Source of the DNA: Rhodopirellula sp.
GTDB lineage: Bacteria > Planctomycetota > Planctomycetia > Pirellulales > Pirellulaceae
DNA: 64,000 nt
NCBI GenBank assembly: GCA_002701385.1
Contig: NZVD01000060.1
Coordinates: 73,534 to 137,533, forward strand
Direction: 5' to 3'
Made by a program: the position numbers and the translations under genes. Positions 16,100-62,443 of this stretch are shown one piece after another (position 1 is the first letter of the stretch; the number at the start of each line of letters is the position of its first letter). The notes below the pieces were generated by a model. That model saw only the letters and a list, made by a program, of their open reading frames with translations. It was not told where the DNA came from and searched no databases.

Positions 16100-16151
16100 A
16101 TTTTAATTTCTTCGGATTGGTTTTAGGGGGCCTAAGCGGAAATCCCACCTC

Positions 16152-34306: not shown

Positions 34307-34348
34307 TCCCTAAAGAACAGCAGGATCCTGCTTTACCAGAGATAAGAG

Positions 34349-44473: not shown

Positions 44474-47400
44474 TTATTTCCAGACTTCATTGAAAAACCC
44501 AGTGTCGACAATACGCCCCGGTACAAGGTCGGTCGGTGGACTTGAGAGATCGATCACCGACCAATCCGGTAATTTAGGATTCTGTAGTGAATTAGTCCGA
44601 TCATGCCCTTCACGATGAGTTGGCCCACTATTCAGGACGATATACTTCTGTTGATTGAGGGGGTTCGGGTAAATCATGACAGGCACGTGGGAATCTGACT
44701 CATACGTCTTACCGTTTACGACGAGTGTCTCCTGATTCCATTGGATTGGCAACGACTCTTTCTTTTGCATGACTAACTGTAGCAGCGTGTTTGACCGTGT
44801 GTCGCCAAAGACTATGAGATTATTTGTTCGTACATCTTCCTGAGAAACATCTTTATCCCATTTCACCTTAGGCACACCGCGATAGAGTGTTTTCCAGCGA
44901 TGTAAAAAGTGCTCCAGCTCGAAGTGCACCCAGCGTTCAACGTTGGGATTGGCTGATTTTTTGCTTGGCAAGACAACCAAAAAGGATGAAAGAAATGCGT
45001 CGTCGATGGGGCCTTGCAGGCCTGGGCGTTTCACTAAGCCTTTGGGTCCGGAGGCAGCACGCTTCCATGCTTCATCCTGACCCGACCCTTTGGTTAGATA
45101 AACTGCTTCAGAAATCTGCAATGCTTTGGTACGTGGAATCTGAATGACCTGATCATCAATTTTTATTGTTGCTCCATTTAAAGATAATACCGGATCCAAC
45201 GTCAACGCAGTCACATTCCGAGTTGTGAGATGATAGGTCTGAGGGTCGACAATCTCTGCATCGACTCGGCTGTCCTGCCAGTGCTTGGCCAATCCTGTAA
45301 CTTCCAACCAGTGCATGCGGTTATAACGCAATGTCTGAGTCTGCAATGTCACCTTTTTGGGGATCTCTGACTGCCCCTGCTGGACGGCCTCATCCATTTG
45401 CTTGAGAATCTGAGCCAAGGAATCGGGGTGATACCGATGTCCCATCCCCGGACCGATAACATGAGGTAACTTGGATCCTTCCGCTTCAAAGGCTCGTTCC
45501 ATCACTCGAGCTGCTTGAATTTGCTTATCGAGTTCACCGCTATAAGCAACCACTGGCAAATTAAACAAGTTGCGGACATAGTTGGGCACATCATACATAC
45601 CCCATAATGTCTGAACATATTTCGCCGGATAGTTTTCCGGTTGCATGCGGTTGTACTCTTTCGTTTCGGCAAACCCGGCCCCAGGCCCCACGGCGACCCA
45701 ATGATCTGCATAATGAGCCCCAACATGCCAGGCGCCAGCACCGCCCATTGAGAATCCCATCAAGACAACGCGACGAGGATCAATGTTGTACTGTTGGCTT
45801 ACGTGTTGAACACACTCCAGTACATCGATCTCTCCTGCAGACTTAAAGCCCATACAATGGCGACCAAATGGATGGACCACTATCGCGTCCGCCGGAGCAA
45901 CCTGACTTTTCCGAGTCATGCGTTGATGGATGAAATGCATGTCCGTCGTCTTATCTCCACGGCCATGTAGCCAGACATACAATGGTGCCGGCTTTTCAAA
46001 ATCAAAGTTCTCGGGAATTTCCAAACCATAAGGCTGGGGACTGCCATCTATGCTGGAGTAATAGCCTCGAACGACCAGACCGGTCGAGCGTGTCCAGTCG
46101 TTTTTCCCAGCTGCCAACAACGCCACTCGACGCTCTGCCTCGCCTAGAACAGACTTGGCGATATCGACATGACTTGATGAGTAAAACTCGCCTAAATCTA
46201 CTGCCCACTGAACACCTTTGACCAGAGCAGAAACATCGGCTGATAATGCACCACGGGCCTGAGGTAATTCCATAGCAATCTGAAGTGCTTGGAGGCGGTG
46301 GCCGAGAGCATCCAGTTTGCCCTTCTCTATCTCAACTCCCTGTGGCGGAATCTTATGTGGTATTTTTTCCAGCGTTGGCAGTCCGGAACGATCCAGTGTA
46401 CTGATTGGCTTACCTAAGTGAGTACCTAAACGACGATGAAAGCGATCCGGCGTTAGTGGAACTGGAATCTTATCCTGAGTACTAACGATCCACTCATCCA
46501 AAGCCCCACTCAGTCTGGATTTGACTTCTGCTAATCCGGAATCGGCTGCGAGGTTTCGCAAGGAGTGAGGGTCGGCATGTAGATCGTACAATTCTTCGGC
46601 TGCTCGCGGATAGAGAAAGCACTGGCGTTGATGGTCAGGCAACATACCTGCTGCCTCTAACGCCTGCATGCTGTCATAACTGAGGCTCCTGACAGCGTCG
46701 GCAGGCGGAGTTGCGGGATACTCCGGAAATGAGTTCCTAATATACAGATAACGACCATCTCGAACGGCTCGGTCATGAGCGGCATAATCATGCCAGTTAT
46801 GCTCAGCAAAGATGTATTCTCGACTGACAGAAGATGCATTCCGAAGACCGTTGGCGAAAGATTTTCCCTGGAAAGAGGATGGCAGCTCCAGGCCTGCAAG
46901 CTGAATGAATGTCGGAGCGATATCCACGCTGCTAACTAAGTTAGTATTGACGACGCCCGGGTCAATTCCACGGGGCCAACTTACAACAAACGGAGTGCGA
47001 ATGCCGCTGTCATACATAGTTGTCTTACATCGCGGGAATGGACGGCCGTTGTCAGCCATCACAATAATGACCGTATTGTCGAACTCTCCCTGCGTCTTGA
47101 GTTCAGCTACGACCTTTCCGACATACTCGTCCATTCTGCTGACTTCATCGTAGTACAACGCCAGATCTTTGCGGACATCTTCAGTATCCGGCATGAATGG
47201 AGGAACGATCACATCCTCGTTTGTGTGAGGAGGAGTGACGGCATCTTTTGACCAGCTACGATGAGCGTCGGTTGATGCGAACCACATAAAAAACGGCTTG
47301 TCTTTATCACGGCCTTTTAGCGTAGGCACCCATTCTTCACAGCCACTGGGGCGTCCACCTTTGATCGAATCGAAGTGTTCTCGCGGCGCATTGCCAAGAT

Positions 47401-47797
47401 GCCATTTACCCGCCGCTGCCGTATAGTAACCAGCCTCTTTCAGCACTTTGGCAAATGTGATCTGATCTTCCGGAAGCGGCTGATGTAATTCTCCCGCCCC
47501 AGTCGAATGAGGATAGCGGCCGGTCATAATACTACAGCGACTGGGGCTACAGGAACTGGTCGTCAGAAACGCGAGATCAAACCGCATCCCCTGCTTAGCC
47601 AGTTGGTCAACATGCGGCGTTCGGATATTGGGATGACCATAGGCTCCGTAGTCATTCCAACTGATATCATCGCCAATAATGACAATGAAATTCGGACGCT
47701 CATCTGCCACCAAACGGCCTGATAAAAGACAGGGAAGCAAAAGGATTAATCGCGATACAATTACCTGAAACTTGAGTTGATTCTTGGGTTGAAACAT
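44474..47797 (-). CDS. Type I sulfatase fused to a C-terminal alpha/beta-hydrolase (esterase/peptidase-like) domain
   Basis: 1107 aa with a signal peptide. The sulfatase part has IIGDDISWNDYG, a canonical CSPSRCSIMTGRYP, GKWHLG and MADNGRP. The C-terminal part has WLHGRGD, the elbow GFSMGGAG, SGELD and GMGHRY (a candidate Ser-Asp-His triad). Confidence 0.8.
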   Translation of the reverse strand: MFQPKNQLKFQVIVSRLILLLPCLLSGRLVADERPNFIVIIGDDISWNDYGAYGHPNIRTPHVDQLAKQGMRFDLAFLTTSSCSPSRCSIMTGRYPHSTGAGELHQPLPEDQITFAKVLKEAGYYTAAAGKWHLGNAPREHFDSIKGGRPSGCEEWVPTLKGRDKDKPFFMWFASTDAHRSWSKDAVTPPHTNEDVIVPPFMPDTEDVRKDLALYYDEVSRMDEYVGKVVAELKTQGEFDNTVIIVMADNGRPFPRCKTTMYDSGIRTPFVVSWPRGIDPGVVNTNLVSSVDIAPTFIQLAGLELPSSFQGKSFANGLRNASSVSREYIFAEHNWHDYAAHDRAVRDGRYLYIRNSFPEYPATPPADAVRSLSYDSMQALEAAGMLPDHQRQCFLYPRAAEELYDLHADPHSLRNLAADSGLAEVKSRLSGALDEWIVSTQDKIPVPLTPDRFHRRLGTHLGKPISTLDRSGLPTLEKIPHKIPPQGVEIEKGKLDALGHRLQALQIAMELPQARGALSADVSALVKGVQWAVDLGEFYSSSHVDIAKSVLGEAERRVALLAAGKNDWTRSTGLVVRGYYSSIDGSPQPYGLEIPENFDFEKPAPLYVWLHGRGDKTTDMHFIHQRMTRKSQVAPADAIVVHPFGRHCMGFKSAGEIDVLECVQHVSQQYNIDPRRVVLMGFSMGGAGAWHVGAHYADHWVAVGPGAGFAETKEYNRMQPENYPAKYVQTLWGMYDVPNYVRNLFNLPVVAYSGELDKQIQAARVMERAFEAEGSKLPHVIGPGMGHRYHPDSLAQILKQMDEAVQQGQSEIPKKVTLQTQTLRYNRMHWLEVTGLAKHWQDSRVDAEIVDPQTYHLTTRNVTALTLDPVLSLNGATIKIDDQVIQIPRTKALQISEAVYLTKGSGQDEAWKRAASGPKGLVKRPGLQGPIDDAFLSSFLVVLPSKKSANPNVERWVHFELEHFLHRWKTLYRGVPKVKWDKDVSQEDVRTNNLIVFGDTRSNTLLQLVMQKKESLPIQWNQETLVVNGKTYESDSHVPVMIYPNPLNQQKYIVLNSGPTHREGHDRTNSLQNPKLPDWSVIDLSSPPTDLVPGRIVDTGFFNEVWK

Positions 47798-48889: not shown

Positions 48890-51697
48890 ATGTCCCGGAT
48901 ACGACTTTCATCGTTTGTTTTTTGGCTTTCGGCGTTGTGCCTACTTAGCTCGTTCGTGCTGGTCGGGGTCGCACAGCCACCTGCTTCAACGCCTGCGTTC
49001 TCTACGGAGCAGCTCGACTTTTTTGAAACTAACGTTCGGCCAGTACTCGTTTCCAAATGCATCGAATGCCATGGGCCTGATACTCAGGAATCTGAATTAA
49101 GAATCGATTCAAGGGAGGCCATTATCAAAGGCTCGACTTCCGGCAGCATCGTCGACTTGAAGGCACCCGAAAAGAGCTTGCTGCTTCAAGTGCTAAGTCA
49201 TCAACAGGATATCCAGATGCCGCCGGACGACAAATTGGCGGATAAGGAAATTGCTGCGATCAAAGCCTGGATCGAGTTGCGACTTCCTTGGCCGCCAGGT
49301 GATCAGGGAAAAATTACAAAATACGATTCGTATGACACCATGCGACGTGAACACTGGGCATTTCAGCCTATCGAGCCCGTGCAGTTGCCAGCGGTCAATG
49401 ACATTACCTGGGCTCGCAGTCCACTAGATACGCTTGTGCTGGCCAAGCTTGAATCTGCTGAAATTAAGCCTTCCCCTGAAGCCGATCGCCGAACGCTGAT
49501 TCGTCGAGTCTATTTCAATCTTCTGGGCATTCCTCCAACTCCTCAACAAGCCCAGTCATTTGTTGATAATCCGGAACCCGATGCCTATGAGCAACTGGTA
49601 GATCAAGTCCTCAGTGCACCCCAATTCGGAGAGCGTTGGGGGAGACATTGGCTCGATGTCGCTCGCTACAGCGATACACTAGGATACAACTTCCAGCGTG
49701 AGCGCAGATTCCCCTTTTCCTATACCTATCGAGACTACGTCGTCCGGGCCTTCAATCAGGACATTCCGTATGATGATTTTATCCGTCATCAACTTGCGGC
49801 TGACCTAATGACACTTGAAGACCAACGTGATCTAGCCGGTATGGGATTACTCACTGTTGGTCGACAGTATCGGCGTGAGCAACTCGACACTGACGACCGC
49901 ATCGATACTGTGACTCGGGGATTCATGGGACTGACCGTTGCCTGTGCCCGTTGCCATGATCATAAATATGATGCCATTCCCACAGAGGATTATTATTCGC
50001 TTTACGGAGTTTTCGCCAGTGCTCGCGTCCCTGCCGAGCTTCCAACGATTCAGACGCCGGAAGAGACAATTGGCTATACCCAGTTCGCAGAAGGGTTGGC
50101 GGTCGTTCAGGGTGAATTAGACGAATATGACACCAAACGTGCCGGCGAATTCACTGAGTTATTTCGTGATAAGGTGTTTGACTATTTTGTTCGAGCCGCT
50201 GGCCGTCCAGATGAAACGCAAATTAAGTCAATTGAGGCACTTTCTGTTCGCGATACGGATATCCGAAACGCACAAGTCACTCAATGGCAATCCTACGTCC
50301 TTAAAACCGTAGCCAATGATGACCCGTTCTTCTCATTGCTAAAAATACTTGGAGCTACCCAGGCTGACAAATTCGTAGAAGTCGAATCAGCAGCAAGGGA
50401 AAAACTAATGACGCTCGAAGAAGGAATTGAGAGCGGCCAGGTTAACCCGCTTCTTAAACGAGCTTATCTGGAGAATCCACCAAAGTCTGTCTTGGAACTA
50501 TCAATAATCTACGCCAACATCCTGCAGGACGTACGAAATGAAACCAAGAAGCTCGGGACGCAACTTACTCCCGCTCAGCAACAGGTCTACCAGCACCTGA
50601 TCAGTGAAAACTCACCCACCCATGTCACATTGGAAAACGTCAATCAGTTTTACAATCGGGCGGATGGGAATACGCGTAACGGTCTGGTCAGAAAAATCGA
50701 CCTCTACAAATCGACGACACCGGGCAATCCGCCACGAGCGATGGTCATGGAAGAGAAACCAAATCCTTATAATCCCGTGGTCTTCATCCGAGGTAATTCC
50801 GGAAGACGTGGTGAACCCGTCAAGAGGCAATTCCTATATGCGCTAGATGGCGATCAGCAGGAGCCTTTTAAGAATGGTGGTGGTCGACTGGAGTTGGCGG
50901 AAAAGATCGCCCACCCAGACAACCCACTTACCAGGCGAGTGTTGATCAATCGAATCTGGTCACATCATTTTGGCAAGTCCTTGGTGACGTCGCCCAGCGA
51001 CTTTGGAATACGCTGTGACAAACCCATCCAACTTGATCTTATGGATTATCTGGCAAATGTTTTGTTGGAAAACGACTGGTCCATCAAAGAAGTGCATCGC
51101 GAAATTTTACTTTCGGCAACGTTTCGTCAAGCATCTGTCGACCGACCTCAAGCCAGATCCGTGGATCCTGAAAACGCATTATTCTGGAGGAAGAACCGTC
51201 AGCGACTCGAATACGAAGCATTTCGGGATTCAGTGATGTATGTCACCAACGAATTGGACTTCCGCATGGGAGGACTCTCAGAAGACCTAACTAATTCCCC
51301 CACGAATCACCGTCGAGCGATCTATTCGTTTATCGACAGACAGGATCTGGCAGGACTGCTTCGGGTGTTTGATTTCCCTAATCCCGATAGTCATAGCGCT
51401 CAACGTCCGGTTACCACCGTTCCTCAACAGGCCTTATTCATTATGAATTCGCCGGTCATTTTGGAGCGTGCAAAACGTTTCGTTCTCAGTTCTGAATTTC
51501 AAACCACCGCCGAATCTGAACGACTCTCTTACTTGTACCAAAGATTCTTCCAACGCTCTCCATCTTCAACCGAAGAGAAAGTCGCTAAGCAGTTTTTTGC
51601 TGGCTGGATTGAATCGAGTGAAACCTCAAAAATGGATGCCTGGCAACAATACGCCCATCTGTTATTGATGACCAACGAATTCATGTTCGTGGACTAA
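48890..51697 (+). CDS. PSCyt/DUF1549/DUF1553 domain protein (planctomycete cytochrome c-like)
   Basis: Signal peptide, CxxCH motif CIECHG, GERWGRHWLDVARY, CARCHDHKYDAI and C-terminal LMTNEFMFVD. Paralog of the 16152-19733 product. Confidence 0.85.
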   Translation: MSRIRLSSFVFWLSALCLLSSFVLVGVAQPPASTPAFSTEQLDFFETNVRPVLVSKCIECHGPDTQESELRIDSREAIIKGSTSGSIVDLKAPEKSLLLQVLSHQQDIQMPPDDKLADKEIAAIKAWIELRLPWPPGDQGKITKYDSYDTMRREHWAFQPIEPVQLPAVNDITWARSPLDTLVLAKLESAEIKPSPEADRRTLIRRVYFNLLGIPPTPQQAQSFVDNPEPDAYEQLVDQVLSAPQFGERWGRHWLDVARYSDTLGYNFQRERRFPFSYTYRDYVVRAFNQDIPYDDFIRHQLAADLMTLEDQRDLAGMGLLTVGRQYRREQLDTDDRIDTVTRGFMGLTVACARCHDHKYDAIPTEDYYSLYGVFASARVPAELPTIQTPEETIGYTQFAEGLAVVQGELDEYDTKRAGEFTELFRDKVFDYFVRAAGRPDETQIKSIEALSVRDTDIRNAQVTQWQSYVLKTVANDDPFFSLLKILGATQADKFVEVESAAREKLMTLEEGIESGQVNPLLKRAYLENPPKSVLELSIIYANILQDVRNETKKLGTQLTPAQQQVYQHLISENSPTHVTLENVNQFYNRADGNTRNGLVRKIDLYKSTTPGNPPRAMVMEEKPNPYNPVVFIRGNSGRRGEPVKRQFLYALDGDQQEPFKNGGGRLELAEKIAHPDNPLTRRVLINRIWSHHFGKSLVTSPSDFGIRCDKPIQLDLMDYLANVLLENDWSIKEVHREILLSATFRQASVDRPQARSVDPENALFWRKNRQRLEYEAFRDSVMYVTNELDFRMGGLSEDLTNSPTNHRRAIYSFIDRQDLAGLLRVFDFPNPDSHSAQRPVTTVPQQALFIMNSPVILERAKRFVLSSEFQTTAESERLSYLYQRFFQRSPSSTEEKVAKQFFAGWIESSETSKMDAWQQYAHLLLMTNEFMFVD

Positions 51698-51701
51698 AAC
51701 A

Positions 51702-53174
51702 ATGAAGAAACCAAACGAAGGAATATTTCACAGTAGCCCTGCTGCATTAACGGGCTTCAGTCGCCGCGAGTTACTGGCTCGATCGGGGACGGGATTGGGC
51801 ATGATGGGGCTCGCCGGATTGCTTGGGGATGACTCATTGCTGTCGACTTCTCAGGCCGCCGATGCTGTCAGCCCACTAGCGCCCAAACAACCTCACTTTG
51901 AAGGCAAGGCGAAACATGTCATTCACATCTTCTGCAACGGCGGACCGTCGCACGTCGATACATTCGACAACAAGCCTGAATTGACCAAGCATCATGGTAA
52001 GCCTCTTCCATTCAGTAATTTAAAAACAGAACGCAAAACAGGCCATTGCTTCGGGACTCCTTTTAGCTGGAAGCAATATGGGGAATCCGGCATTGAAGTC
52101 AGTGAACTATACGCAAAAACGGCAGCTGCCCATATCGATGACATGTGCATCGTCCGTAGTATGCATGCGGATGTACCTAACCACGAGCCCTCGTTGTTGC
52201 TCATGAATTGCGGGGAATCAACATTGATTCGTCCCAGTGTTGGGTCATGGATTTCGTATGGACTGGGAACGGAGAATCAAAACCTCCCTTCGTTCATTGC
52301 CATGTCTCCGGGAGGCTATCCCATTAAAGGGGCACAGAATTGGCAATCTGCATTCTTGCCTGGCATCTATCAGGGCACGTACATCGACAGCAAGCATCGC
52401 GATGTGGAAAAACTGATTGCTAACATTCGCAACTCCGACATTCCTCTAAATCAACAACGGCAACAGCTGAATGCATTAAAACGTCTTAACGAAATTCATC
52501 GAGAGCAACGCGGAGAGTCACCAGAGCTGGACGCACGGATCGAAAACTATGAGCTGGCTTATCGAATGCAATTGGAAGCCAGCGATGTCTTTGATGTCAG
52601 CGACGAACCAGCTCATGTTGTGGAAAGCTATGGGACCAGTGACGCGGCTCGGCAAATGCTCATCGCCCGACGGCTTGTTCAACGTGGTGTGCGTTACGTC
52701 CAGTTATGGCACGGCGCCGGTCAACCCTGGGACAATCATGATGACATTGAAGCAAACCATCGAAGATTGGCGGGGCAACAGGATAGTGCCATTGCTGCCT
52801 TGATGAGTGATCTAAAACGGTTAGGGCTGTTTGATGAAACACTGATTATCTGGGGTGGTGAGTTCGGTAGGACACCGGTAGTCGAATTGCCAACCGCCGG
52901 TGCTAATCAAGGAAAGATTAACGGACGTGACCACAATCACTGGGGATTCACTGTCTGGCTGGCCGGCGGAGGCATACGCGGTGGTCAAACTTACGGCACG
53001 ACCGATCCGTTTGGCTTCCGAGCCGAAGAAAATCCAGTACATGTCCATGATCTGCACGCTACCATGCTGCACTTAATGGGTTTTGATCACAAGCAGTTAA
53101 CCTACCGGTACGCCGGCCGGGACTACCGCCTGACCGACGTCCATGGTGAAGTAAAACAGGACTGGCTGGCTTAA
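51702..53174 (+). CDS. DUF1501 domain protein with Tat signal
   Basis: Twin-arginine motif SRRELLARSGTGLGMMGL. GGPSHVDTFDNKPEL, WGGEFGRTP and HDLHATMLHLMG. Starts 4 nt after the DUF1553 gene. Confidence 0.85.
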   Translation: MKKPNEGIFHSSPAALTGFSRRELLARSGTGLGMMGLAGLLGDDSLLSTSQAADAVSPLAPKQPHFEGKAKHVIHIFCNGGPSHVDTFDNKPELTKHHGKPLPFSNLKTERKTGHCFGTPFSWKQYGESGIEVSELYAKTAAAHIDDMCIVRSMHADVPNHEPSLLLMNCGESTLIRPSVGSWISYGLGTENQNLPSFIAMSPGGYPIKGAQNWQSAFLPGIYQGTYIDSKHRDVEKLIANIRNSDIPLNQQRQQLNALKRLNEIHREQRGESPELDARIENYELAYRMQLEASDVFDVSDEPAHVVESYGTSDAARQMLIARRLVQRGVRYVQLWHGAGQPWDNHDDIEANHRRLAGQQDSAIAALMSDLKRLGLFDETLIIWGGEFGRTPVVELPTAGANQGKINGRDHNHWGFTVWLAGGGIRGGQTYGTTDPFGFRAEENPVHVHDLHATMLHLMGFDHKQLTYRYAGRDYRLTDVHGEVKQDWLA

Positions 53175-55232: not shown

Positions 55233-55814
55233 TTATTGACAAAACTTTGCTTCCCATTCAGCCAATTGCTCATGAACCGATGTCTCATCCGGAATTAGAC
55301 CATCAGCAAGCTTTGACTGGTATTCTATTTCAAAATCTTCAATCTCTGGTTGGATGGCCTGCAAACTATGCTCGACCATCCGTTCGGTAAACATAACGCC
55401 GTCCAAATGATCCGTTTCGTGTTGAACGACTCGGGCCATGAAATCATCGAGGTCTAGGCTGATCGCTTTACCATCAATACCGAACGCTTCAACGTGAATA
55501 CTCTTGGAGCGGTTAACGGGGCCATAAACTCCGGGCAGACTCAAACAGCCCTCATCAGCCACCTCATTCCCTGTGCCTTTGCTAATGACCGGATTAATAA
55601 AAACAAATTCCTCGCCTTCTTCACGGTCGCCGGCAGGATTTGCGACAAATAATCGCAAAGGCAAATTCACTTGATTGGCTGCCAAGCCCACGCCTTTGGC
55701 TTCGTACATTAACTCGAACATTTCAGACACGATGGCCTTTAGTTCAGCATTAATTCGAATCACTGGCTTCGATTTATACTTTAAGGTTGGATGAGGATGA
55801 GTAATGATTTCCAT
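55233..55814 (-). CDS. def: Peptide deformylase
   Basis: The three conserved motifs are GVGLAANQ, EGCLSLPG and QHETDHLDG. Start placed at the ATG at 55814 (MEIITHPHPTL); the ORF-track start 55946 adds 44 non-homologous residues. Confidence 0.9.
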   Translation of the reverse strand: MEIITHPHPTLKYKSKPVIRINAELKAIVSEMFELMYEAKGVGLAANQVNLPLRLFVANPAGDREEGEEFVFINPVISKGTGNEVADEGCLSLPGVYGPVNRSKSIHVEAFGIDGKAISLDLDDFMARVVQHETDHLDGVMFTERMVEHSLQAIQPEIEDFEIEYQSKLADGLIPDETSVHEQLAEWEAKFCQ

Positions 55815-56036
55815 GAATGAACTCAAAAGGCACGACACGTTTCGGGGTCTCAATAATAAAGAGATTAGCATCGAAACTGCGAATCTGAAAGTCCGGAAAG
55901 TTGACAACAACCGCGGAGGCCTGCTCGGTGAAGCATCAATCCTCATGGATGGATGCTTCGCTTATATTCCCACACGACTTATAATGAACAAACCAAGCAC
56001 TAGTCCAATTCAATCCTCTGCGACCTCCACATTTTA

Positions 56037-57131
56037 GTGAATTCTCCCACAAATCCAGATTCCGCTCCGCAGACTGATGCGTTGTTTTCCAGTATCGAAG
56101 AGATGCCTGAAAACCAGCAGGAACTGCTCTCAAATCTGAGTGACTCTGATGGCATGTTCTACTACGAAAACAACAGTAATTCGGCGTTGTTTATCTCGGT
56201 GGGAATTCACATTGCCGTTTTTGCATTACTGGTCTACACCTGGAAGACTACTATCTTCAAAGGAGCTGCAGACGAGCAATCTGCCGAAGGTGGGATCGTC
56301 CTGGTAAATAACTCTGCTGAAAGTCCCACGTATCATCAGAACCCTAGCGAAGAGACTTCACAGTCCACGCAACAATCCTCTGAATCCGTTAGTGAATTAG
56401 TGGAACAAAGTACACAACTCGATGCACTCTCAAATATTCAACTTCCCGGAGGATTACCGGACGGCACAGCCGAACCGATTATCGATACCAGTGGTAGTGC
56501 CGAGAGTGCTTTACCGACTCTCGAAGAACTGACCAATAATCAAACATCCAATGGAGGAGACTTTGGAAAAGTCGAAACGGGTGTATTTGGTATCAAAGGA
56601 AAAGGCTCTCGGTTTATTTATGTTTTCGACCGCTCGGCTTCCATGTCCGGCTACATGGGAAAGCCGATGCATGCAGCCCAGCAACAGCTACTAGCCAGCT
56701 TGACGGACCTGAAAGAAAACCATCAATTCCAAATCATCTTCTATAACGAGTATCCATCGGTCTTTAATCCGTTTCATCCCTCACCACCTAAGCTTTTGTA
56801 TGGCAATCAGATTAACCGTACCGAAGCGGTCAATTTCGTTGAAGGAATCAAGCCATCAGGACAGACCAACCATATTGCAGCACTCAAAGCAGCACTCAAT
56901 ATGAAACCCGATGTGATCTTCTTCCTGACCGATGCCGATGAACCCCAGCTGACAACTGACGAGCTAGCTTTGATCACGAACCGTAATGACGGAGTGGGAG
57001 CTTCGATTAACTGCATACAATTCGGAGTGGGAAGATATCTGGGTTCCAAAAATTTCCTGATGCGACTAGCTGACCTCAATGGTGGGCAATACAGCTATGT
57101 CGACTTGAATAAACTGACGCCCATACGTTAA
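56037..57131 (+). CDS. TonB-like N-terminal membrane anchor fused to a vWA (MIDAS) domain
   Basis: TM helix LFISVGIHIAVFALLVYT with Ser-x3-His, closely resembling the E. coli TonB anchor LLSVCIHGAVVAGLLYT. Ser/Gln/Glu-rich linker. vWA domain with MIDAS residues (DRSAS, GQT, TDAD). GTG start; alternative starts are possible upstream of the TM helix. Confidence 0.7.
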   Translation: MNSPTNPDSAPQTDALFSSIEEMPENQQELLSNLSDSDGMFYYENNSNSALFISVGIHIAVFALLVYTWKTTIFKGAADEQSAEGGIVLVNNSAESPTYHQNPSEETSQSTQQSSESVSELVEQSTQLDALSNIQLPGGLPDGTAEPIIDTSGSAESALPTLEELTNNQTSNGGDFGKVETGVFGIKGKGSRFIYVFDRSASMSGYMGKPMHAAQQQLLASLTDLKENHQFQIIFYNEYPSVFNPFHPSPPKLLYGNQINRTEAVNFVEGIKPSGQTNHIAALKAALNMKPDVIFFLTDADEPQLTTDELALITNRNDGVGASINCIQFGVGRYLGSKNFLMRLADLNGGQYSYVDLNKLTPIR

Positions 57132-57168: not shown

Positions 57169-58266
57169 ATGGCTGCGCATACAGGATCAATTCGATGCCA
57201 GAGATGGTTCGTATTTCTATTAGCCTTTCTGACTACGACCACGTTTTTTGCAACTAACTGCTCAGGTCAGGAAATGCCACCTGATACTGTTACAGTTTGG
57301 AACAGCAATACCAAAAAGAGCCAGAGCTATCGCGGGCGAATTGTAAGTTATGACGCCAGCGAATTGAAGCTACAGTTGGCTTCCGGGCGAGAGCAGTCCC
57401 TGCCCTCTGCACAAATTACTGACATTACCAGTCGTTGGCATGACGATTACGTCAAAGCCGAAGATTTTGTACAGCAACGCCGCTTTGAACGCGCCTCCAT
57501 AAGCTATAAGCAAGCACTTACAGCTGAAACCCGCCTCTGGGTAAAACACCGTATAACTGCAAGATTGGTTGCCTGTGAGCAGAATGACGGGAATTGGCAT
57601 AACGCTGCGAACCAGTTTTTTAACACCTTAATGAGTCAACAGTCGGGTACGCCCTATTTGAGTGCGGCACCGCTCGCCTGGCATACACTTTCAGCCTCCG
57701 GCGAATTATTGCATCGTGGCCGAGAGCTCATGCGATCTGCGAATGCTCTGAAGCAGCTTGTCGGAGCTAGCTGGTTGCTGACCACTCCTTACCGAAGTGA
57801 AGCCATAGTCATTTTTAAACAACTGGAACAACATCAGGATAAGACGATCGCCCTGCTTGCTGTTGCACAAACATGGCGTACCCGGATTCCACTAGCCAAG
57901 CAGGACGACTTGAAACAATGGGAGCAACTAGTCCTCCAACTCCCCAGAGACCTTCGAGCCGGTCCGCTCCATATTCTGGCTCAGATGCAGCGCAGCTTGG
58001 GGCTACACGAAGAGGCTGTTCTAACCTGGATGAAAATCCCAATCCTCTATCCCGCCACACACCATTTGTCGGCCGAGGCTTTATACGCATCGATTCGCGA
58101 ACTCATGACATTAACGCAATATTCAGAAGCGCTCATCCTCTGCAAAGAGTTTGCCAGTCGCTATTCAGATACAACTACCGGCACGCAAGCTGAGCGACTC
58201 GAATTAGATATTCGGGCTCGAATCAAGGCACGCGATCAGATCAATCAGGAAGGAGATGCCTCGTGA
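57169..58266 (+). CDS. Secreted alpha-helical-repeat (TPR-like) protein
   Basis: 365 aa. Signal peptide with a possible lipobox (FFATNCS). Helical-repeat-like C-terminal two thirds. The stop overlaps the exbB-like start (GTGA at 58263-58266). Confidence 0.6.
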   Translation: MAAHTGSIRCQRWFVFLLAFLTTTTFFATNCSGQEMPPDTVTVWNSNTKKSQSYRGRIVSYDASELKLQLASGREQSLPSAQITDITSRWHDDYVKAEDFVQQRRFERASISYKQALTAETRLWVKHRITARLVACEQNDGNWHNAANQFFNTLMSQQSGTPYLSAAPLAWHTLSASGELLHRGRELMRSANALKQLVGASWLLTTPYRSEAIVIFKQLEQHQDKTIALLAVAQTWRTRIPLAKQDDLKQWEQLVLQLPRDLRAGPLHILAQMQRSLGLHEEAVLTWMKIPILYPATHHLSAEALYASIRELMTLTQYSEALILCKEFASRYSDTTTGTQAERLELDIRARIKARDQINQEGDAS

Positions 58267-59066
58267 GACGGTTTAACTGGTTCACCACCCTTGGCACCAC
58301 GGGCCTTGTATTCGGACTCATGTTTCAAGTGTCCGCCATGGCACAGGACGCTGAAGGCAGAACGGCTCAGGTCAAAGGATTTACAGATATAGTCTTTTCC
58401 GGTGGCATCACTGGATTGGCAATCCTGATTCTCCTGCTCTGTTTATCCTTAACCGCAGTCTACTTGGTCATTGAACACTTATTGACCTTACGAGCCAAAG
58501 ACATCATGCCTACCGATTTGGGTATTCAGTTAAGAGATCAGCTCGTGGCTGGTAAATACCGCGAAGCAGATGCACTTTGTCGTGAGAATCCATGCCTGTT
58601 AAGTTTTGTCATCAGCCATGGATTGGGCGAGATGGAAGGAGGCTGGGAAGCCATCGAAAAAGCGATGGAGGATGCCATGGCTGAGCAATCCGCACGTCTA
58701 TTTCGAAAAATCGAATACCTCTCGGTGATTGGGAACATTGCACCGATGGTGGGCCTACTAGGCACGGTTACCGGAATGATCTTCGCCTTTCAGCAGGTTG
58801 CAACCACACAGGGAGCAGCAGGTGCAGGTGACCTAGCCGAAGGTATCTATCAGGCTCTGGTCACCACGGTAGGCGGACTGATCGTTGCGATCCCATCCTT
58901 AGGAGCTTTCGCCATCTTTCGTAACCGAGTGGATCATCTGGTTGCAGAAGCATCTTACGTTGTCCAGCATACGATCGCTCCTGTAAAACAAAGAGCACGA
59001 CACGCTTCAAAGAATGCTAAGCAACCAGCAGCCACTCCTAAAGCCAAATCACCCGAGCAGGGTTAA
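58263..59066 (+). CDS. exbB: MotA/TolQ/ExbB-family proton channel protein
   Basis: Three TM helices with the family signature IAPMVGLLGTVTGMIFAF and LVTTVGGLIVAIPSL. Confidence 0.85.
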   Translation: MRRFNWFTTLGTTGLVFGLMFQVSAMAQDAEGRTAQVKGFTDIVFSGGITGLAILILLLCLSLTAVYLVIEHLLTLRAKDIMPTDLGIQLRDQLVAGKYREADALCRENPCLLSFVISHGLGEMEGGWEAIEKAMEDAMAEQSARLFRKIEYLSVIGNIAPMVGLLGTVTGMIFAFQQVATTQGAAGAGDLAEGIYQALVTTVGGLIVAIPSLGAFAIFRNRVDHLVAEASYVVQHTIAPVKQRARHASKNAKQPAATPKAKSPEQG

Positions 59067-59100: not shown

Positions 59101-59526
59101 ATGCACATTCCTAGTTACGCCAGATCGAAAGAAGTCGGCTTTAACATGACACCGATGATTGATGTCGTGTTCCTGCTGATCATTTTCTTTCTCGTTTCCA
59201 GCCATCTGGCCAAACAGGAATCCCAGATGGAAATTGATTTACCGAATGCCGAATCCGGCCTGGAATCCGAAGTCAGTACGACTCCCAGAATCGTAATCAA
59301 CGTAACCAGTTCCGGCCAGTTATTAATCTCTGGTCGCCGTGTCTCTGAATTCGAAGTAGAAGACCGGCTTGTTGAGCATGTGCAGAATAACGGTCCCAAT
59401 GTCGAAGTACGTATTCGAAGTGATCGTCAAATCCCCTTCGCACAGGTCCGACCGGTCATGCTGGCCTGCGCCAAAATGGGCATTTGGAATGTTGCGTTCT
59501 CGGTTTACCCGAATGAGGGACGGTAA
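59101..59526 (+). CDS. exbD: ExbD/TolR-family biopolymer transport protein
   Basis: N-terminal TM helix with the conserved Asp (MTPMIDVVFLLIIFFLV). Periplasmic domain typical of ExbD (VEVRIRSDRQIPFAQVRPVMLACAKMG). Confidence 0.85.
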   Translation: MHIPSYARSKEVGFNMTPMIDVVFLLIIFFLVSSHLAKQESQMEIDLPNAESGLESEVSTTPRIVINVTSSGQLLISGRRVSEFEVEDRLVEHVQNNGPNVEVRIRSDRQIPFAQVRPVMLACAKMGIWNVAFSVYPNEGR

Positions 59527-59528
59527 CC

Positions 59529-59978
59529 ATGAAACGACCCTCCATATTCAACGGTTCACGGCGGGAACTAGAAATCAAAATGACCCCCATGATCGACGTC
59601 GTCTTCCTACTGTTGGTCTTTTTTGTTTGGACAGCCAGTTTTCATGCCGTCGAATATCTATTGCCCAGTTCGCTTAGTCAAAAACAAGGCACTGGACAAA
59701 CCGTGAATGTCGATGAGCCACCACCGGAGATTGAATTCGAAGATATCGTTGTACGCATCTCGTTTACCAACAATCAACCAGCTTGGTCTGTTAATGGACA
59801 ACCAGTGGCAAGTCTCTCGGAAGTACGAAGTCGACTAGCCTTAGTCGCCGACATTAAAATAGATTCGCCTGTCATCCTTCACCCGGACGAAACTGTGCCA
59901 GTAGGAAACGTGATTGATGTTTACGACGCCACCCGGCTTGCCGGATTCACCCAAATTCAGTTTGCCATTGCCGAATGA
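59529..59978 (+). CDS. exbD: ExbD/TolR-family biopolymer transport protein (second paralog)
   Basis: MTPMIDVVFLLLVFFVW TM helix with the conserved Asp. Periplasmic domain (VILHPDETVPVGNVIDVYDATRLAG). Starts 2 nt after the previous stop. Confidence 0.85.
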   Translation: MKRPSIFNGSRRELEIKMTPMIDVVFLLLVFFVWTASFHAVEYLLPSSLSQKQGTGQTVNVDEPPPEIEFEDIVVRISFTNNQPAWSVNGQPVASLSEVRSRLALVADIKIDSPVILHPDETVPVGNVIDVYDATRLAGFTQIQFAIAE

Positions 59979-62443
59979 AAAATCGCATCCTCGCATTTCT
60001 AGTTTTGTTCTGCTGCTGTGTCACTGCGTACGCAGATCCACAGGATGAAACCGCGTTGTTGGAGGGACTGCAGCAACGAGGGCTGTTCAGTCTGGTTGAA
60101 TATCAGTGTCGTTCAAAAATCAATGATCCGGCATCTTCGGCCCGAACCAGAATGGAATGGACGGTTCACCTAATCAATGCATTTTCTCAAAATGCTTTAC
60201 GTCATCCGTCCGATCAACGAGAACCCTATTGGAAACGAGCACGAGACACGGCCGCAGACTTTGTTGCCAAGCATCCCAACGACCCGTTGGTGATCCCCGT
60301 CAAACTACAAGCGGCGCTCGTACTCTCTGCCAACGGTGAACTACTCAGGCTCGAGTCAACCATTTCTAAATCAGCGGGCGTTCAGCGAGAGTACTCGCGG
60401 GAACAACTAAGGCTAGCCACACGTGCACTCAGTGAATTGGATATAGAAATTCGCGACTTTCTCCCTCAGGTGAATCAGGAGGCAACCGAGGACCAGTTAT
60501 CTCAAGCAGAACTATTATCAATACAGCAAAACCTCCAATATCAGTTGGCTCGTACCTACCGGAATCAGGCAAATACCTATGCCGACGGTACAAACGATCA
60601 AATCGCTTCCTTACAACGAGCAATAACCGCCCTAAAAAAACCACTCACTCAACTAGCCGATGAAGATCCTCTGGTAGCCAATCTCTATCTGGCATTACTC
60701 GCATGCCACCGCGAACTCAAGCAATTCGACGAAGCAAACTCTGCTATATCGAAACTCCAGGAGCTTCCGCTTACACCGGTCACAAGGCTCAAACTACGAG
60801 CGGAAAGTGTCCGACTATCGCTAGACACAGGCGACCTGGAATCTGCCTTGAAGTCGCTCAACGCACCACATACTTCTAAAGCAACGTTAGTGCCCGAATT
60901 CGATCTTGCGCACTTAGATGCTCGTATCTATTTCTGGAGTAAAGCCGCCAAAGAAGAAAATCTAAAACAGGCTGAGAATTATCAGCAACAGTCCGTCCTC
61001 ACCGTGAAATATATCGAAGAGCTACATGGACCCTATTGGGGACGTGTCGCTGAGCTTCGTCTTTTACGCTTCGCCGGTATGAACGGCGATAATACCAATC
61101 TGGCAGTATTAGAACGAACGGCAGACGATCTCTATCGGAAAGAGAAGCTGACCGAAGCCATTGCCGCTTATGATGCCACGGCTGAAGCGGCACGCAATGG
61201 AGGCGATAACGATCTCGCATTCCGGACCCTCTATAAAGCCGCCTTGATCGAACAAAAGCGAGGAAACACTGAAGCGTTTATCGAACGACTTACTACCACA
61301 GGCGTCCAGCTAAGAACCCACCAACAGGCACCCGCAGTGCATATGCTGGGCGTTCGAACTCTCATTGAATTACTCAACAAGGATCCCTCTCGTCAGCAAG
61401 ATTTTGAAACGCTACTGACAGAACACATAACCTATTTCGAACAGGGTAGCACGGTCGATCAGGCGGCTGTCTGGCTCGCAACCTTACAGCAACGACGCCA
61501 AAACTATGAAGAAGCCATTACGAACTACATGATCGTGCGGCCGGAATATCCAGATTATCCAACCATTATTTCCCATCTAGAGCAGTGTTGGGCTGTCCTT
61601 TTAAAAGACACACCCAATGAGGAATTACTATCGGTAGCGAAGCCCTTCATCGATCACTTGCGTTCGCTAATTTATGATGACTCCGATCAGATCCCGGACC
61701 AATGGAATAAAAACAGCCGCTACGCTGCCACGGCCTTGGCTGGATTCTTGCTCACCTATTCCACAGAGAATTACGACACGGCTGAATCGCTTTTGGCTGC
61801 GGCCAGCTCGGACGCCACGGACAAAAACTGGCTAGCTATCGCCAGCTCGCTACGTATCGTATCACTCGCTGCACAGGGCAAGAACAACGCCGCGCGTGAA
61901 CACATTAACGATCTAAAATCGAGTTCGCACGATCAATGGCTGCAAATGCTAGAGCAACTTCAGACCGTCTCGACCGGCGCTCCCGAAGCAACCGGAAAGG
62001 CAATCGCGCAGATGCAAATCCATCTGATTAATGAACTAACAGACCAATTAGTCGGTGTCATGCCTGACTTTAAAACCCGTTGGTATTTAATTGAAGCTGA
62101 AGCCTACATGCAGTCCGGAAATCTGAGTGATAGCCTCAAGAAATATCAGACTCTGGCCCAAAGGAATCCTCGCCACGGCCTGATTCAACTACGATATGCT
62201 CAGGCCCTGAGCCGCAGCGACGAACATTTCGAATCAGGGTTGATCCAATGGCGACGTATCCTACAGGGAAATCCACCGAAAAGTGATCGCTGGTACGAGG
62301 CGAAATATAATATCGCCAGTCTGTACCTCAGGGAAGGGAATCAGGAAGAAGCTCGAAAACAAATCCGATACCTAGAGGTCACCAGTGGCTTCGGCACCTG
62401 GGAGCAATCTTTTCAGGAACTCCTAAGACAAGCTAGTCCCTAG
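59975..62443 (+). CDS. Large secreted tetratricopeptide-repeat protein
   Basis: 822 aa with a signal peptide (ILAFLVLFCCCVTAYA) and TPR-like helical repeats throughout. The ATG overlaps the exbD stop (ATGA at 59975-59978). Confidence 0.7.
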   Translation: MKNRILAFLVLFCCCVTAYADPQDETALLEGLQQRGLFSLVEYQCRSKINDPASSARTRMEWTVHLINAFSQNALRHPSDQREPYWKRARDTAADFVAKHPNDPLVIPVKLQAALVLSANGELLRLESTISKSAGVQREYSREQLRLATRALSELDIEIRDFLPQVNQEATEDQLSQAELLSIQQNLQYQLARTYRNQANTYADGTNDQIASLQRAITALKKPLTQLADEDPLVANLYLALLACHRELKQFDEANSAISKLQELPLTPVTRLKLRAESVRLSLDTGDLESALKSLNAPHTSKATLVPEFDLAHLDARIYFWSKAAKEENLKQAENYQQQSVLTVKYIEELHGPYWGRVAELRLLRFAGMNGDNTNLAVLERTADDLYRKEKLTEAIAAYDATAEAARNGGDNDLAFRTLYKAALIEQKRGNTEAFIERLTTTGVQLRTHQQAPAVHMLGVRTLIELLNKDPSRQQDFETLLTEHITYFEQGSTVDQAAVWLATLQQRRQNYEEAITNYMIVRPEYPDYPTIISHLEQCWAVLLKDTPNEELLSVAKPFIDHLRSLIYDDSDQIPDQWNKNSRYAATALAGFLLTYSTENYDTAESLLAAASSDATDKNWLAIASSLRIVSLAAQGKNNAAREHINDLKSSSHDQWLQMLEQLQTVSTGAPEATGKAIAQMQIHLINELTDQLVGVMPDFKTRWYLIEAEAYMQSGNLSDSLKKYQTLAQRNPRHGLIQLRYAQALSRSDEHFESGLIQWRRILQGNPPKSDRWYEAKYNIASLYLREGNQEEARKQIRYLEVTSGFGTWEQSFQELLRQASP

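What the first reader, a model, noticed from the sequence alone, without database searches (positions are those of the whole stretch)
56037..57131. TonB-type Ser-x3-His membrane anchor fused to a vWA/MIDAS domain instead of a TonB C-terminal domain
Seen: residues 51-68 (nt 56187-56240), LFISVGIHIAVFALLVYT, align without gaps to the E. coli TonB anchor LLSVCIHGAVVAGLLYT. From the Ser onward, 10 of 15 positions are identical, including the Ser-x3-His pair that in TonB/TolA couples the anchor to ExbB-ExbD/TolQ-TolR. A Ser/Gln/Glu-rich linker of about 120 aa follows, not the Pro-rich TonB spacer. The C-terminus is a vWA domain with an apparently intact MIDAS (FDRSASMSG .. PSGQTNH .. FLTDADE). No TonB C-terminal-like sequence is visible in this protein or elsewhere in the window. 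The gene lies 37 nt upstream of an operon that encodes ExbB and two ExbD among its five genes. Inference: a proton-motive-force stator may energise a periplasm-spanning, metal-dependent adhesion or ligand-binding module rather than a TonB-box-binding domain. I know of no characterised example.
Basis: partly seen in the sequence, partly recalled or inferred. Interest (0 to 1): 0.7.

Follow-up and report, generated by a model that had tools for sequence, protein, structure and literature searches.

The report
TolA/TonB-like anchor carrying a vWA head
This planctomycete gene encodes an inner-membrane protein with a TonB/TolA-type motor-docking helix and a metal-dependent vWA binding domain in place of the usual TonB/TolA head, next to a proton-driven TolQ/TolR-like motor; this protein class was predicted computationally in 2025 and nobody has yet tested what it does.

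Summary
ORF 56037-57131 (364 aa) has one transmembrane helix carrying Ser54-x3-His58. A roughly 106-residue acidic, Pro-poor disordered linker follows, then a confident C-terminal vWA domain with a complete MIDAS. A gap of 37 nt with no terminator-like site separates it from five genes: a TPR protein, a TolQ/ExbB-like gene, two TolR/ExbD-like genes and a large TPR protein.

In 117 homologues, Ser54, His58 and all five MIDAS residues are invariant. A conserved strand-like GGIVLV motif lies 13 residues after the helix, where TonB's D-box and TolA's R-box sit. Motor genes lie downstream in 50 of 65 informative loci from Planctomycetota genomes. Direct profile matches of the anchor to TolA are in the correct register but below significance.

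Williams-Jones et al. 2025 (Mol Biol Evol, PMC12204202) already describe motor-driven force transducers with an SHLS helix, a motor box and a vWA C-terminal domain. They place them beside TPR, tolQ-like and paired tolR-like genes, and they name Planctomycetes. No experiments exist.

The verdict is a new member of a known, predicted and uncharacterised kind. Small additions here:
- an invariant MIDAS
- an extra TPR gene, CpoB-like in its C-terminal part
- a different gene order
- a subclade without adjacent motor genes

Interest 0.35.

The parts
56037..57131 (+). Gene for the vWA-type force transducer (364 aa): cytoplasmic tail, SH-motif transmembrane helix, disordered linker and vWA/MIDAS head
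   Evidence: ORF and translation. Family of 2825 clusters at 90% identity and 1216 clusters at 50% identity with E<=1e-30. AlphaFold2 model.
56181..56252 (+). Transmembrane helix, residues 49-72 (SALFISVGIHIAVFALLVYTWKTT). It carries Ser54-x3-His58-x6-Leu65. The fourth SHLS position is Trp69, not Ser.
   Evidence: AlphaFold2 helix 49-72 with pLDDT about 90. Ser54 113/113, His58 114/114, Leu65 89/117; position 69 is V/I/L/F/W. Aligns to TolA AIIISAVLHVILFAALIW in register.
56289..56309 (+). Conserved GGIVLVN segment, residues 85-91. Candidate D-box/R-box ('motor box') strand, predicted to bind the TolR/ExbD periplasmic dimer.
   Evidence: G86 115/117, I87 113/117, L89 112/117. It lies 13 residues after the helix, within the 10-15 residue spacing reported for TonB and TolA (PMC12905483). 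Compare TonB ISVTMVT (PMC10907165) and TolA IDAVMVD. AlphaFold2 gives only a 2-residue strand at low pLDDT.
56253..56570 (+). Periplasm-spanning disordered linker, residues 73-178. It is Ser/Glu/Gly/Gln-rich, Pro-poor and has net charge -15. It contains conserved LPGGLP (P141) and LP (P160) motifs.
   Evidence: Composition. pLDDT about 50. P141 invariant and P160 nearly invariant.
56571..57131 (+). vWA domain, residues 179-364. The MIDAS is D198-x-S200-x-S202 (nt 56628-56642), T277 (56865-56867) and D299 (56931-56933).
   Evidence: Pfam VWA_2. PDB profile hit to the ITIH4 vWA at E 1.3e-9, with the motifs aligned. Foldseek. All five MIDAS residues invariant in 117 sequences.
57169..58266 (+). 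g2: secreted protein of 365 aa with a signal peptide, a five-stranded beta domain (39-87) and a TPR superhelix. Its C-terminal TPR region is CpoB/YbgF-like.
   Evidence: No Pfam hit for the window copy, but 22 of 36 homologues hit TPR families. The family profile's best natural PDB hit is CpoB 6g5s_A at E 6.8e-8. AlphaFold2 pLDDT 80.9. Foldseek gives only generic TPR matches. Follows the vWA gene in most loci. Fused to the large TPR protein in L072 and L074.
58263..59066 (+). TolQ/ExbB-like proton-channel subunit (267 aa) with an N-terminal signal-like segment
   Evidence: Pfam MotA_ExbB at E 2.4e-27. NCBIfam tolQ 75.9 bits against exbB 51.2 bits, both below cut-off. Aligns to E. coli ExbB and TolQ with the TM2 Thr and the TM3 Thr and Pro retained. 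S62, T168, T201, T202 and P211 invariant in 52 of 52.
59101..59526 (+). TolR/ExbD-like subunit 1 (141 aa), with the transmembrane Asp21
   Evidence: Pfam ExbD at E 1.1e-25. NCBIfam tolR at E 1.7e-16. D21 in 41 of 41.
59529..59978 (+). TolR/ExbD-like subunit 2 (149 aa), a divergent paralogue with the transmembrane Asp23
   Evidence: Pfam ExbD at E 1.7e-22. D23 in 46 of 46. Only 24-33% identical to subunit 1 in tblastn cross-hits.
59975..62443 (+). Large secreted TPR protein (822 aa), the last gene of the cluster
   Evidence: TPR and ARM-like Pfam hits. Weak tol_pal_ybgF hit at E 0.0024. Conserved at this position in most loci. Invariant D208, R246, E277 and W355.

Best explanation
The gene encodes a TolA/TonB-type periplasmic force transducer whose C-terminal head is a MIDAS-bearing vWA domain. 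It works with the adjacent motor, a TolQ-like pentamer around a heterodimer of two TolR-like paralogues.

Shown here:
- the domain architecture
- the invariance of Ser54 and His58 in the helix, of the GGIVLV strand and of the MIDAS
- an intact motor, with its Asp, Thr and Pro residues retained
- a conserved six-gene arrangement

Inferred, step by step:
1. The helix docks on the outside of the TolQ-like ring through Ser54 and His58, against the invariant Ser62 of TolQ TM1.
2. The GGIVLV strand is clamped by the TolR-like periplasmic domains, as TonB's D-box is clamped by ExbD.
3. Proton flow turns the motor and pulls on the roughly 100-residue linker.
4. The vWA head holds a partner through a metal-bridged Asp or Glu, so the partner is pulled or released.
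5. The two secreted TPR proteins act as scaffolds or adaptors.

The partner is unknown. The physiological role is more likely Tol-like, meaning outer-membrane or cell-wall maintenance, than TonB-like nutrient import.
For: Architecture.

Anchor. Ser54 is present in 113 of 113 and His58 in 114 of 114 sequences. The S-x3-H motif was found in all but 2 (L061, L071) of the locus copies whose N-terminus could be read. TolA models are the only non-vWA envelope families hit. TolA is the only membrane-helix hit of the N-terminal profile in the PDB, in exact register.

D-box-like strand. It sits at the spacing reported for TonB and TolA.

Motor. The catalytic residues are retained. The TM1 Ser is invariant, matching the Ser and Trp hub on ExbB/TolQ TM1 described in PMC12905483.

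Synteny. vWA-g2-TolQ-TolR-TolR-TPR is found in 37 of 65 informative loci. Motor genes lie downstream in 50 of 65, at protein identities down to about 36%. No terminator-like site lies in the 37-nt gap.

Published prediction. PMC12204202 reports AlphaFold3 models that place the conserved His of such vWA proteins at the TonB/TolA site on the motor.

Tol-like flavour:
- TolQ and TolR HMMs score higher than ExbB and ExbD HMMs.
- The g2 profile's best natural PDB hit is CpoB.
- The large TPR protein weakly hits ybgF.
- Planctomycetes lack Pal (supplement of PMC12204202).
- The cluster sits beside def-fmt in 42 of 70 loci.
- The family is large, with 1216 clusters at 50% identity.
Against: - No experiment exists for any member of the class (PMC12204202).
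- The anchor-to-TolA/TonB profile matches are not significant on their own: E 0.006 in NCBIfam and E about 2 in the PDB. A decoy membrane ORF scored almost as high as TolA.
- The fourth SHLS residue is not Ser.
- AlphaFold2 gives the GGIVLV segment low confidence.
- I could not model a complex.
- About 9 of 65 loci carry the vWA gene with TPR genes but no adjacent motor. Four loci have none of the partners. Two copies (L061, L071) lack the SH motif.
- PDB phmmer scores E. coli ExbB and TolQ about equally, so the Tol-versus-Ton call is soft.
- TPR matches are promiscuous, so the CpoB resemblance is only suggestive.
Confidence: 0.7

Rival explanations
1. It is the TonB equivalent of a nutrient-import system. 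The vWA head engages an outer-membrane transporter, or another uptake device, and the motor powers import of, for example, polysaccharide or metal complexes.
For: The motor is ExbB/ExbD-like by Pfam and scores equally to E. coli ExbB and TolQ. The anchor is 10/15 identical to the TonB helix. The window is rich in sulfatases and other polymer-degrading genes.
Against: No TonB-dependent receptor or plug domain occurs in the window or in the conserved neighbourhood. Such receptors were found in few of the planctomycete genomes surveyed (PMC3422733), whereas this family is very widespread. NCBIfam TolQ and TolR models score higher than ExbB and ExbD models. The conserved partners are TPR proteins, one of them CpoB-like.
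Confidence: 0.12
2. It is part of a surface adhesion or gliding apparatus, as PMC12204202 tentatively suggests by analogy with the Myxococcus vWA adhesin CglB.
For: vWA/MIDAS domains are classic adhesion modules. The closest folds are ITIH, the anthrax-toxin receptor and the LapA vWA domain. The authors of PMC12204202 propose a gliding role.
Against: The head is tethered to the inner membrane by about 100 residues. It carries no outer-membrane or secretion signal, so it should stay in the periplasm. No gliding, Glt-like or secretion genes are conserved next to it. Its conserved position beside def-fmt and its very wide distribution fit a housekeeping envelope role better.
Confidence: 0.06
3. 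It is an ordinary membrane-anchored periplasmic vWA protein, of the BatA/BatB or YfbK kind. Its helix is only an anchor and its proximity to the motor genes has no mechanical meaning.
For: Membrane-anchored vWA proteins with TPR partners are common in bacteria (established knowledge of the Bacteroides Bat operon). The anchor's profile match to TolA is statistically weak. Some loci lack adjacent motor genes.
Against: An invariant polar Ser-x3-His pair inside a single-pass helix is not expected for a passive anchor, and neither is an invariant strand motif 13 residues after it. No BatA_N domain was detected. No MoxR or DUF58 partner was seen among the window ORFs of at least 180 aa. Linkage to TolQ/TolR genes persists down to about 36% identity. 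The subclade without adjacent motor genes still keeps PWLLS[ST]TLH and a strand motif.
Confidence: 0.1

Closest known systems
vWA-type motor-driven force transducers (Williams-Jones et al. 2025, Mol Biol Evol 42:msaf138, PMC12204202; seeded from Tichowtungia aerotolerans)
   Same: A single helix with the SHLS-type Ser and His, a disordered region with a strand ('motor box'), a domain II of about 100 residues and a vWA C-terminal domain. The neighbours are a TPR gene, one tolQ-like gene and two different tolR-like genes. Planctomycetes are listed among the host phyla.
   Different: Here the vWA gene lies upstream of the motor genes, not downstream. An additional TPR gene (g2) sits between them and a second large TPR gene follows. 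There is one transducer per locus, against two in Tichowtungia. The paper does not mention the MIDAS, which is invariant here. Direct sequence homology to the Tichowtungia proteins could not be tested.
TolA of the Tol-Pal system (E. coli TolQRA, e.g. PDB 9ddm and 9k49)
   Same: The Ser-x3-His-x6-Leu helix aligns in register. A strand motif follows the helix, as with TolA IDAVMVD. The motor is TolQ/TolR-like. TPR proteins with CpoB/YbgF-like repeats lie in the same cluster.
   Different: There is no TolA domain III. The linker is not alpha-helical. No TolB or Pal lies in the neighbourhood, and Planctomycetes lack Pal. There are two TolR paralogues instead of one.
TonB of the Ton system (E. coli TonB-ExbBD, PDB 9ddo)
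   Same: 10 of 15 residues of the helix are identical from the Ser onward. A D-box-like strand sits at similar spacing. The linker is of similar length. The motor is ExbB/ExbD-like.
   Different: There is no TonB_C domain and no Pro-rich spacer (about 6% against 25.6% Pro). No TonB-dependent receptors are nearby.
Second vWA family of the same paper: vWA proteins with a TolR-like trans-pore helix, paired with tolQ only
   Same: A vWA head on an inner-membrane helix next to a tolQ-like gene.
   Different: That family has an Asp-bearing pore helix, lacks SHLS and has no tolR genes nearby. Here the helix has Ser and His but no Asp, and two tolR-like genes are present.
MIDAS-type vWA ligand-binding domains (ITIH heavy chains, CMG2/ANTXR2, integrin I-domains)
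   Same: The same fold, with a complete DxSxS...T...D metal site.
   Different: Those are extracellular eukaryotic adhesion or receptor modules. Here the domain is periplasmic and tethered to a proton-driven motor.

Membership tests
vWA-type force transducers (PMC12204202) | N-terminal transmembrane helix with the SHLS motif, including the conserved His | tested here: met
   Ser54, His58 and Leu65 are present. Ser and His are invariant in 113/113 and 114/114 sequences. The last Ser of SHLS is replaced by Trp, or by V/I/L/F in homologues.
vWA-type force transducers (PMC12204202) | [quoted passage not shown] | tested here: met
   The conserved GGIVLV at 85-90 lies 13 residues after the helix. 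AlphaFold2 shows only short strands at 90-91 and 98-99 with low pLDDT.
vWA-type force transducers (PMC12204202) | Domain II of about 100 residues followed by a vWA-fold C-terminal domain | tested here: met
   The linker is 106 residues, with a family median of 102. The vWA fold has pLDDT above 90 and Foldseek E of 1e-12.
vWA-type force transducers (PMC12204202) | [quoted passage not shown] | tested here: met
   Present in the window. Motor genes lie downstream in 50 of 65 informative loci. The gene order differs from the one described.
vWA-type force transducers (PMC12204202) | Predicted docking of the helix His at the TonB/TolA site on the motor pentamer | not testable with these tools
   No multimer prediction was available. 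Indirect support only: the TolQ-like TM1 Ser62 is invariant.
vWA-type force transducers (PMC12204202) | Sequence homology to the Tichowtungia aerotolerans seed proteins | not tested
   No seed sequence or accession is held in the paper text or supplements.
TonB family | C-terminal TonB_C domain that binds TonB boxes by strand addition | tested here: not met
   No TonB_C Pfam or NCBIfam hit. The C-terminus is a vWA domain.
TonB family | Proline-rich periplasmic spacer | tested here: not met
   About 6% Pro against 25.6% in E. coli TonB.
TolA family | Match to TolA models above cut-off, including TolA domain III | tested here: not met
   TIGR02794 scores 15.6 bits against a cut-off of 59.45. Only the anchor region aligns.
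TolA family | Operon context with tolB and pal | tested here: not met
   No TolB, Pal or OmpA-like domain in window ORFs of at least 180 aa. Planctomycetes are reported to lack Pal.
TPH-vWA family (second vWA family of PMC12204202) | TolR-like pore helix with a conserved Asp, no SHLS, and tolQ without tolR nearby | tested here: not met
   The helix has no Asp and has Ser-x3-His. Two tolR-like genes are adjacent.
BatA/BatB aerotolerance-type vWA proteins | BatA_N domain, with MoxR-type ATPase and DUF58 partners | tested here: not met
   Only VWA_2 was found in the protein. No MoxR or DUF58 domain was seen in window ORFs of at least 180 aa.
MIDAS-containing vWA domains | DxSxS, Thr and Asp metal-site residues | tested here: met
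   D198, S200, S202, T277 and D299 are invariant in 117 sequences. They align to the ITIH4 motifs. Metal binding itself was not tested.

The most novel reading that the evidence does not exclude
In Pirellulales, which lack Pal and mostly lack TonB and its receptors, this six-gene module would be the functional replacement for Tol-Pal. The proton-driven motor would pull, through the vWA/MIDAS head, on an outer-membrane or cell-wall-associated partner. The two TPR proteins would act as CpoB-like coordinators. The system would keep the outer membrane attached during budding growth. Force would then be transmitted through a metal-ion-bridged contact instead of the beta-strand addition used by TolA and TonB.
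Probability: 0.2. Interest if true: 0.7.

Novelty: new member of a known kind. Interest (0 to 1): 0.35.

Why it matters
TonB and TolA are the only well-understood ways by which Gram-negative bacteria deliver inner-membrane energy to the outer envelope. Both grip their targets by strand addition. A third head type, a metal-dependent vWA domain on the same motor-docking chassis, would show that the 5:2 motor chassis is reused with a different gripping chemistry.

Planctomycetes lack Pal, and many lack TonB. In them this could be the main energised link across the envelope.

The idea is already published as a prediction, so this locus adds no new concept. It does add concrete test material:
- a very large, tightly syntenic Pirellulales family present in cultured strains (Blastopirellula marina DSM 3645, Bremerella)
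- invariant residues to mutate (Ser54, His58, the GGIVLV strand and the MIDAS residues)
- two conserved TPR partners

Tried and rejected
- Lipoprotein reading of g2: rejected. The Cys in its signal peptide is not conserved, and homologues have type I cleavage sites of the AxA type.
- Specific fold assignment for g2: Foldseek gave only generic TPR matches, with BamD on top at E 2e-4 and poor TM-scores. Only the sequence-profile hit to CpoB is somewhat specific.
- Profile proof of anchor homology: the 60-residue N-terminal profile against the PDB gave TolA at E about 2. Chance GroES hits on 'GGIVL' ranked above it. Against 1998 decoy ORFs, TolA and TonB ranked first and third among the non-family hits, but the decoy L036_15123 scored 13.2 bits against TolA's 13.8. 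I therefore do not claim statistical homology from this test.
A 10-sequence alignment was used instead.
- Looking for sequences of the published Tichowtungia proteins: none are held in the paper or its supplements.
- Rhodopirellula baltica transcriptome paper (PMC2754498): exbB RB12053 and exbD RB12055 are induced by salt stress, and a vWA gene, RB7557, is listed. I could not establish that either is the orthologue of this cluster.
- Literature search for planctomycete TonB together with crateriform uptake found nothing usable.
- The third homologue search, the metagenome scan, and the PADLOC and PHROGs libraries were left unused as not relevant.
Full report
**1. What is there**

The ORF at 56037-57131 (+) encodes 364 aa from a GTG start. 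Close homologues begin at the same position, some with ATG. The sequence reads as described. Residues 51-68 are LFISVGIHIAVFALLVYT. From the Ser onward they share 10 of 15 residues with the E. coli TonB helix. I verified the TonB sequence against PDB chain 9ddo_F.

The AlphaFold2 model was built on a 117-sequence alignment. It gives:
- a confident helix at residues 49-72
- a low-confidence region at 73-178
- a vWA domain at 179-360 with pLDDT above 90

Pfam VWA_2 matches above its gathering score. A family profile hits the ITIH4 vWA domain at E 1.3e-9. Foldseek finds ITIH1/ITIH4, CMG2/ANTXR2, alpha2-delta and CLCA1 vWA domains at E 1e-12 to 1e-8.

The linker is 15% Ser, 11% Glu, 9% Gly and 8.5% Gln. 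It has about 6% Pro and a net charge of -15, against 25.6% Pro in the E. coli TonB linker.

The stop codon is followed by 37 nt with no terminator-like site. Five genes then follow on the same strand:
- a 365-aa secreted protein, here called g2
- a MotA/ExbB/TolQ-family protein
- two ExbD/TolR-family proteins
- an 822-aa secreted TPR protein

Upstream and divergent lie def and fmt.

No TonB_C, TolA, TonB-dependent-receptor or Pal-like domain is present in any window ORF of at least 180 aa. The family profile finds no second copy in the window.

**2. Conservation**

The protein belongs to a very large family. There are 2825 clusters at 90% identity with E<=1e-3. There are 1216 clusters at 50% identity with E<=1e-30. 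At least 576 species-representative genomes hold a relative, and the 80 loci retrieved are all Planctomycetota. These include Blastopirellula marina DSM 3645 and Bremerella.

In a 117-sequence alignment reaching about 36% identity:
- Ser54 is present in 113 of 113 sequences and His58 in 114 of 114.
- Leu65 is Leu in 89 of 117 sequences and hydrophobic in nearly all the rest.
- The fourth position of the TonB/TolA 'SHLS' motif is not Ser.

Thirteen residues after the helix lies a nearly invariant G-G-I-V-L-V: G86 115/117, I87 113/117, L89 112/117.

All five MIDAS residues (D198, S200, S202, T277, D299) are invariant. DxSxS is present in 80 of 80 genomic loci.

**3. Is the anchor a TonB/TolA anchor?**

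Direct profile evidence is in the right place but weak.
- NCBIfam TolA models are the only envelope families hit besides vWA-containing ones. They give E 0.006-0.007 and align residues 45-125 to TolA 2-83. Five of 35 family members hit tolA_full.
- A 60-residue profile of the N-terminus searched against all PDB sequences returns five hits. Two are E. coli TolA, aligned AwllSlalHlallvlLal to AIIISAVLHVILFAALIW, but at E about 2.
- Against 1998 decoy ORFs plus TolA and TonB, the best non-family hits ran TolA (13.8 bits), one decoy membrane ORF (13.2 bits), then TonB (8.9 bits).

I therefore do not claim homology from E-values. The stronger argument is evolutionary. An invariant polar Ser-x3-His pair inside a single-pass helix has no reason to be kept in a passive anchor.

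The GGIVLV strand sits at the spacing reported for the TonB D-box and the TolA R-box, 10-15 residues after the helix (PMC12905483). It resembles TonB ISVTMVT (PMC10907165) and TolA IDAVMVD.

**4. The motor and the partners**

The TolQ/ExbB-like protein aligns with E. coli ExbB (6e-11) and TolQ (2.4e-10). It keeps the TM2 Thr and the TM3 Thr and Pro. Across 52 copies, S62 in TM1, T168, T201, T202 and P211 are invariant. A TM1 Ser is part of the contact hub for the TonB/TolA Ser and His (PMC12905483).

Both TolR/ExbD-like paralogues keep the transmembrane Asp, in 41 of 41 and 46 of 46 copies.

NCBIfam TolQ and TolR models score higher than ExbB and ExbD models, though all are below cut-off.

g2 has these features:
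- a type I signal peptide; the Cys in it is not conserved, so it is not a lipoprotein
- a five-stranded beta domain followed by a TPR superhelix
- TPR Pfam families in 22 of 36 homologues
- CpoB, the TPR protein of the Tol-Pal operon, as the profile's best natural PDB match, at E 6.8e-8, with YbgF at 0.013
- only generic TPR matches in Foldseek

In two genomes (L072, L074) g2 is fused to the large TPR protein in one 1160-aa ORF. This argues that the two TPR proteins act together.

**5. Synteny**

Of 65 loci with at least 4.5 kb downstream:
- 37 have the full order vWA-g2-TolQ-TolR-TolR-TPR.
- 50 have motor genes downstream on the same strand.
- 9 have only g2 and/or the TPR gene.
- 2 have only g2.
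- 4 have none of the partners.

def is the divergent neighbour in 42 of 70 loci.

The subclade without adjacent motor genes keeps PWLLS[ST]TLH. It has a strand motif of the classic alternating kind, GISLEA or GITLDA. Two copies (L061, L071) lack the Ser-His motif.

**6. Comparison with what is known**

The architecture and its interpretation are already published. Williams-Jones et al. [quoted passage not shown] These have a helix with SHLS, a disordered region with a motor box, a domain II of about 100 residues and a vWA C-terminal domain.

They report them in Proteobacteria, Planctomycetes, Verrucomicrobia, Bacteroidetes and Rhodothermaeota. [quoted passage not shown] AlphaFold3 models place the conserved His at the TonB/TolA site. 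The authors state that the function is unknown and that no phenotypes have been reported.

A literature search found no other paper on such proteins.

The window protein meets every defining feature I could test. It is not a TonB or TolA family member, because it has no TonB_C and no TolA domain III. It does not belong to the paper's second vWA family either, which has a pore helix with Asp and no tolR genes nearby.

Differences from the published description:
- The vWA gene is upstream of the motor genes, not downstream.
- An extra TPR gene, g2, is present.
- There is one transducer per locus.
- The MIDAS is invariant. The paper does not mention the MIDAS.

**7. Mechanism and role**

Most likely (0.7), the helix docks on the TolQ-like ring through Ser54 and His58. 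The GGIVLV strand is clamped by the TolR-like heterodimer. Proton flow pulls on the linker. The MIDAS head holds an acidic residue of a partner.

The architecture, the conservation and the synteny are shown here. The contacts and the pulling are inferred.

The partner is unknown. Candidates are the two TPR proteins, or an outer-membrane protein encoded elsewhere.

I lean towards a Tol-like envelope role over TonB-like import, for these reasons:
- TolQ and TolR models score higher than ExbB and ExbD models.
- g2's TPR region resembles CpoB.
- Planctomycetes lack Pal.
- TonB and its receptors were found in only four of the planctomycete genomes surveyed (PMC3422733).
- The cluster is a widespread, housekeeping-looking neighbour of def-fmt.

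This lean is weak. A surface adhesion or gliding role is unlikely for a head tethered to the inner membrane by about 100 residues.

**8. Verdict**

The finding is a new member of a known kind, one that is only predicted and not experimentally characterised.

Its value lies in test material: cultured hosts, invariant residues and conserved partners. It does not add a new concept.

Noticed in passing
L072:7065-10547 and L074:8643-12131: In two Pirellulales genomes the g2 TPR protein and the large TPR protein are fused into one ORF of about 1160 aa. These loci have no adjacent motor genes.
   Followed up: partly
L059, L063, L064, L065, L072, L073, L074, L080 (vWA gene at about 8001 in each): A subclade of the vWA family lacks adjacent TolQ/TolR genes. 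It keeps PWLLS[ST]TLH and carries a strand motif (GISLEA or GITLDA) closer to the alternating TonB D-box pattern than GGIVLV. Its motor must be encoded elsewhere.
   Followed up: partly
L061:1395-2315 and L071:7533-8591: Two family members have the vWA/MIDAS domain but no Ser-x3-His in the N-terminal hydrophobic segment. L061 looks like a plain signal peptide. They may be uncoupled paralogues.
   Followed up: no
L012, L014, L027, L052 (between g2 and the TolQ-like gene); L046 (between the vWA gene and g2): Insertions of about 2-3 kb interrupt the otherwise compact cluster. Their content was not examined.
   Followed up: no
window 32222-35503 (+): Adjacent genes for topoisomerase VI subunits B and A (Topo-VIb_trans plus HATPase_c; TP6A_N plus Toprim). 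This enzyme is mainly archaeal and eukaryotic, and here it sits in a planctomycete.
   Followed up: no
window 14699-19850 (-) and 48890-53174 (+): Two pairs of the planctomycete-specific PSCyt1/PSCyt2/PSD1 protein with a DUF1501 sulfatase-like protein. The second pair lies about 3 kb upstream of the vWA gene.
   Followed up: no
window 44474-47797 (-): A 1107-aa ORF combines an N-terminal sulfatase with a C-terminal peptidase_S9/esterase-like domain.
   Followed up: no
window 55233-55946 (-): The peptide deformylase ORF as listed has a 44-residue N-terminal extension before the Pfam domain. The true start is probably the Met at MEIITHPH, near 55814. That would widen the divergent promoter region shared with the vWA gene to about 220 nt.
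   Followed up: no
window 56280-56310 (residues 82-91): The segment AEGGIVLV gives chance-level profile hits to the GroES/Cpn10 'kGGIVLP' strand (E about 1). I judge this coincidental.
   Followed up: partly
window 58263-58350: The TolQ/ExbB-like protein starts with a signal-peptide-like segment (cleavage-like AMA/QD) before its first transmembrane helix, as in some long ExbB proteins.
   Followed up: no
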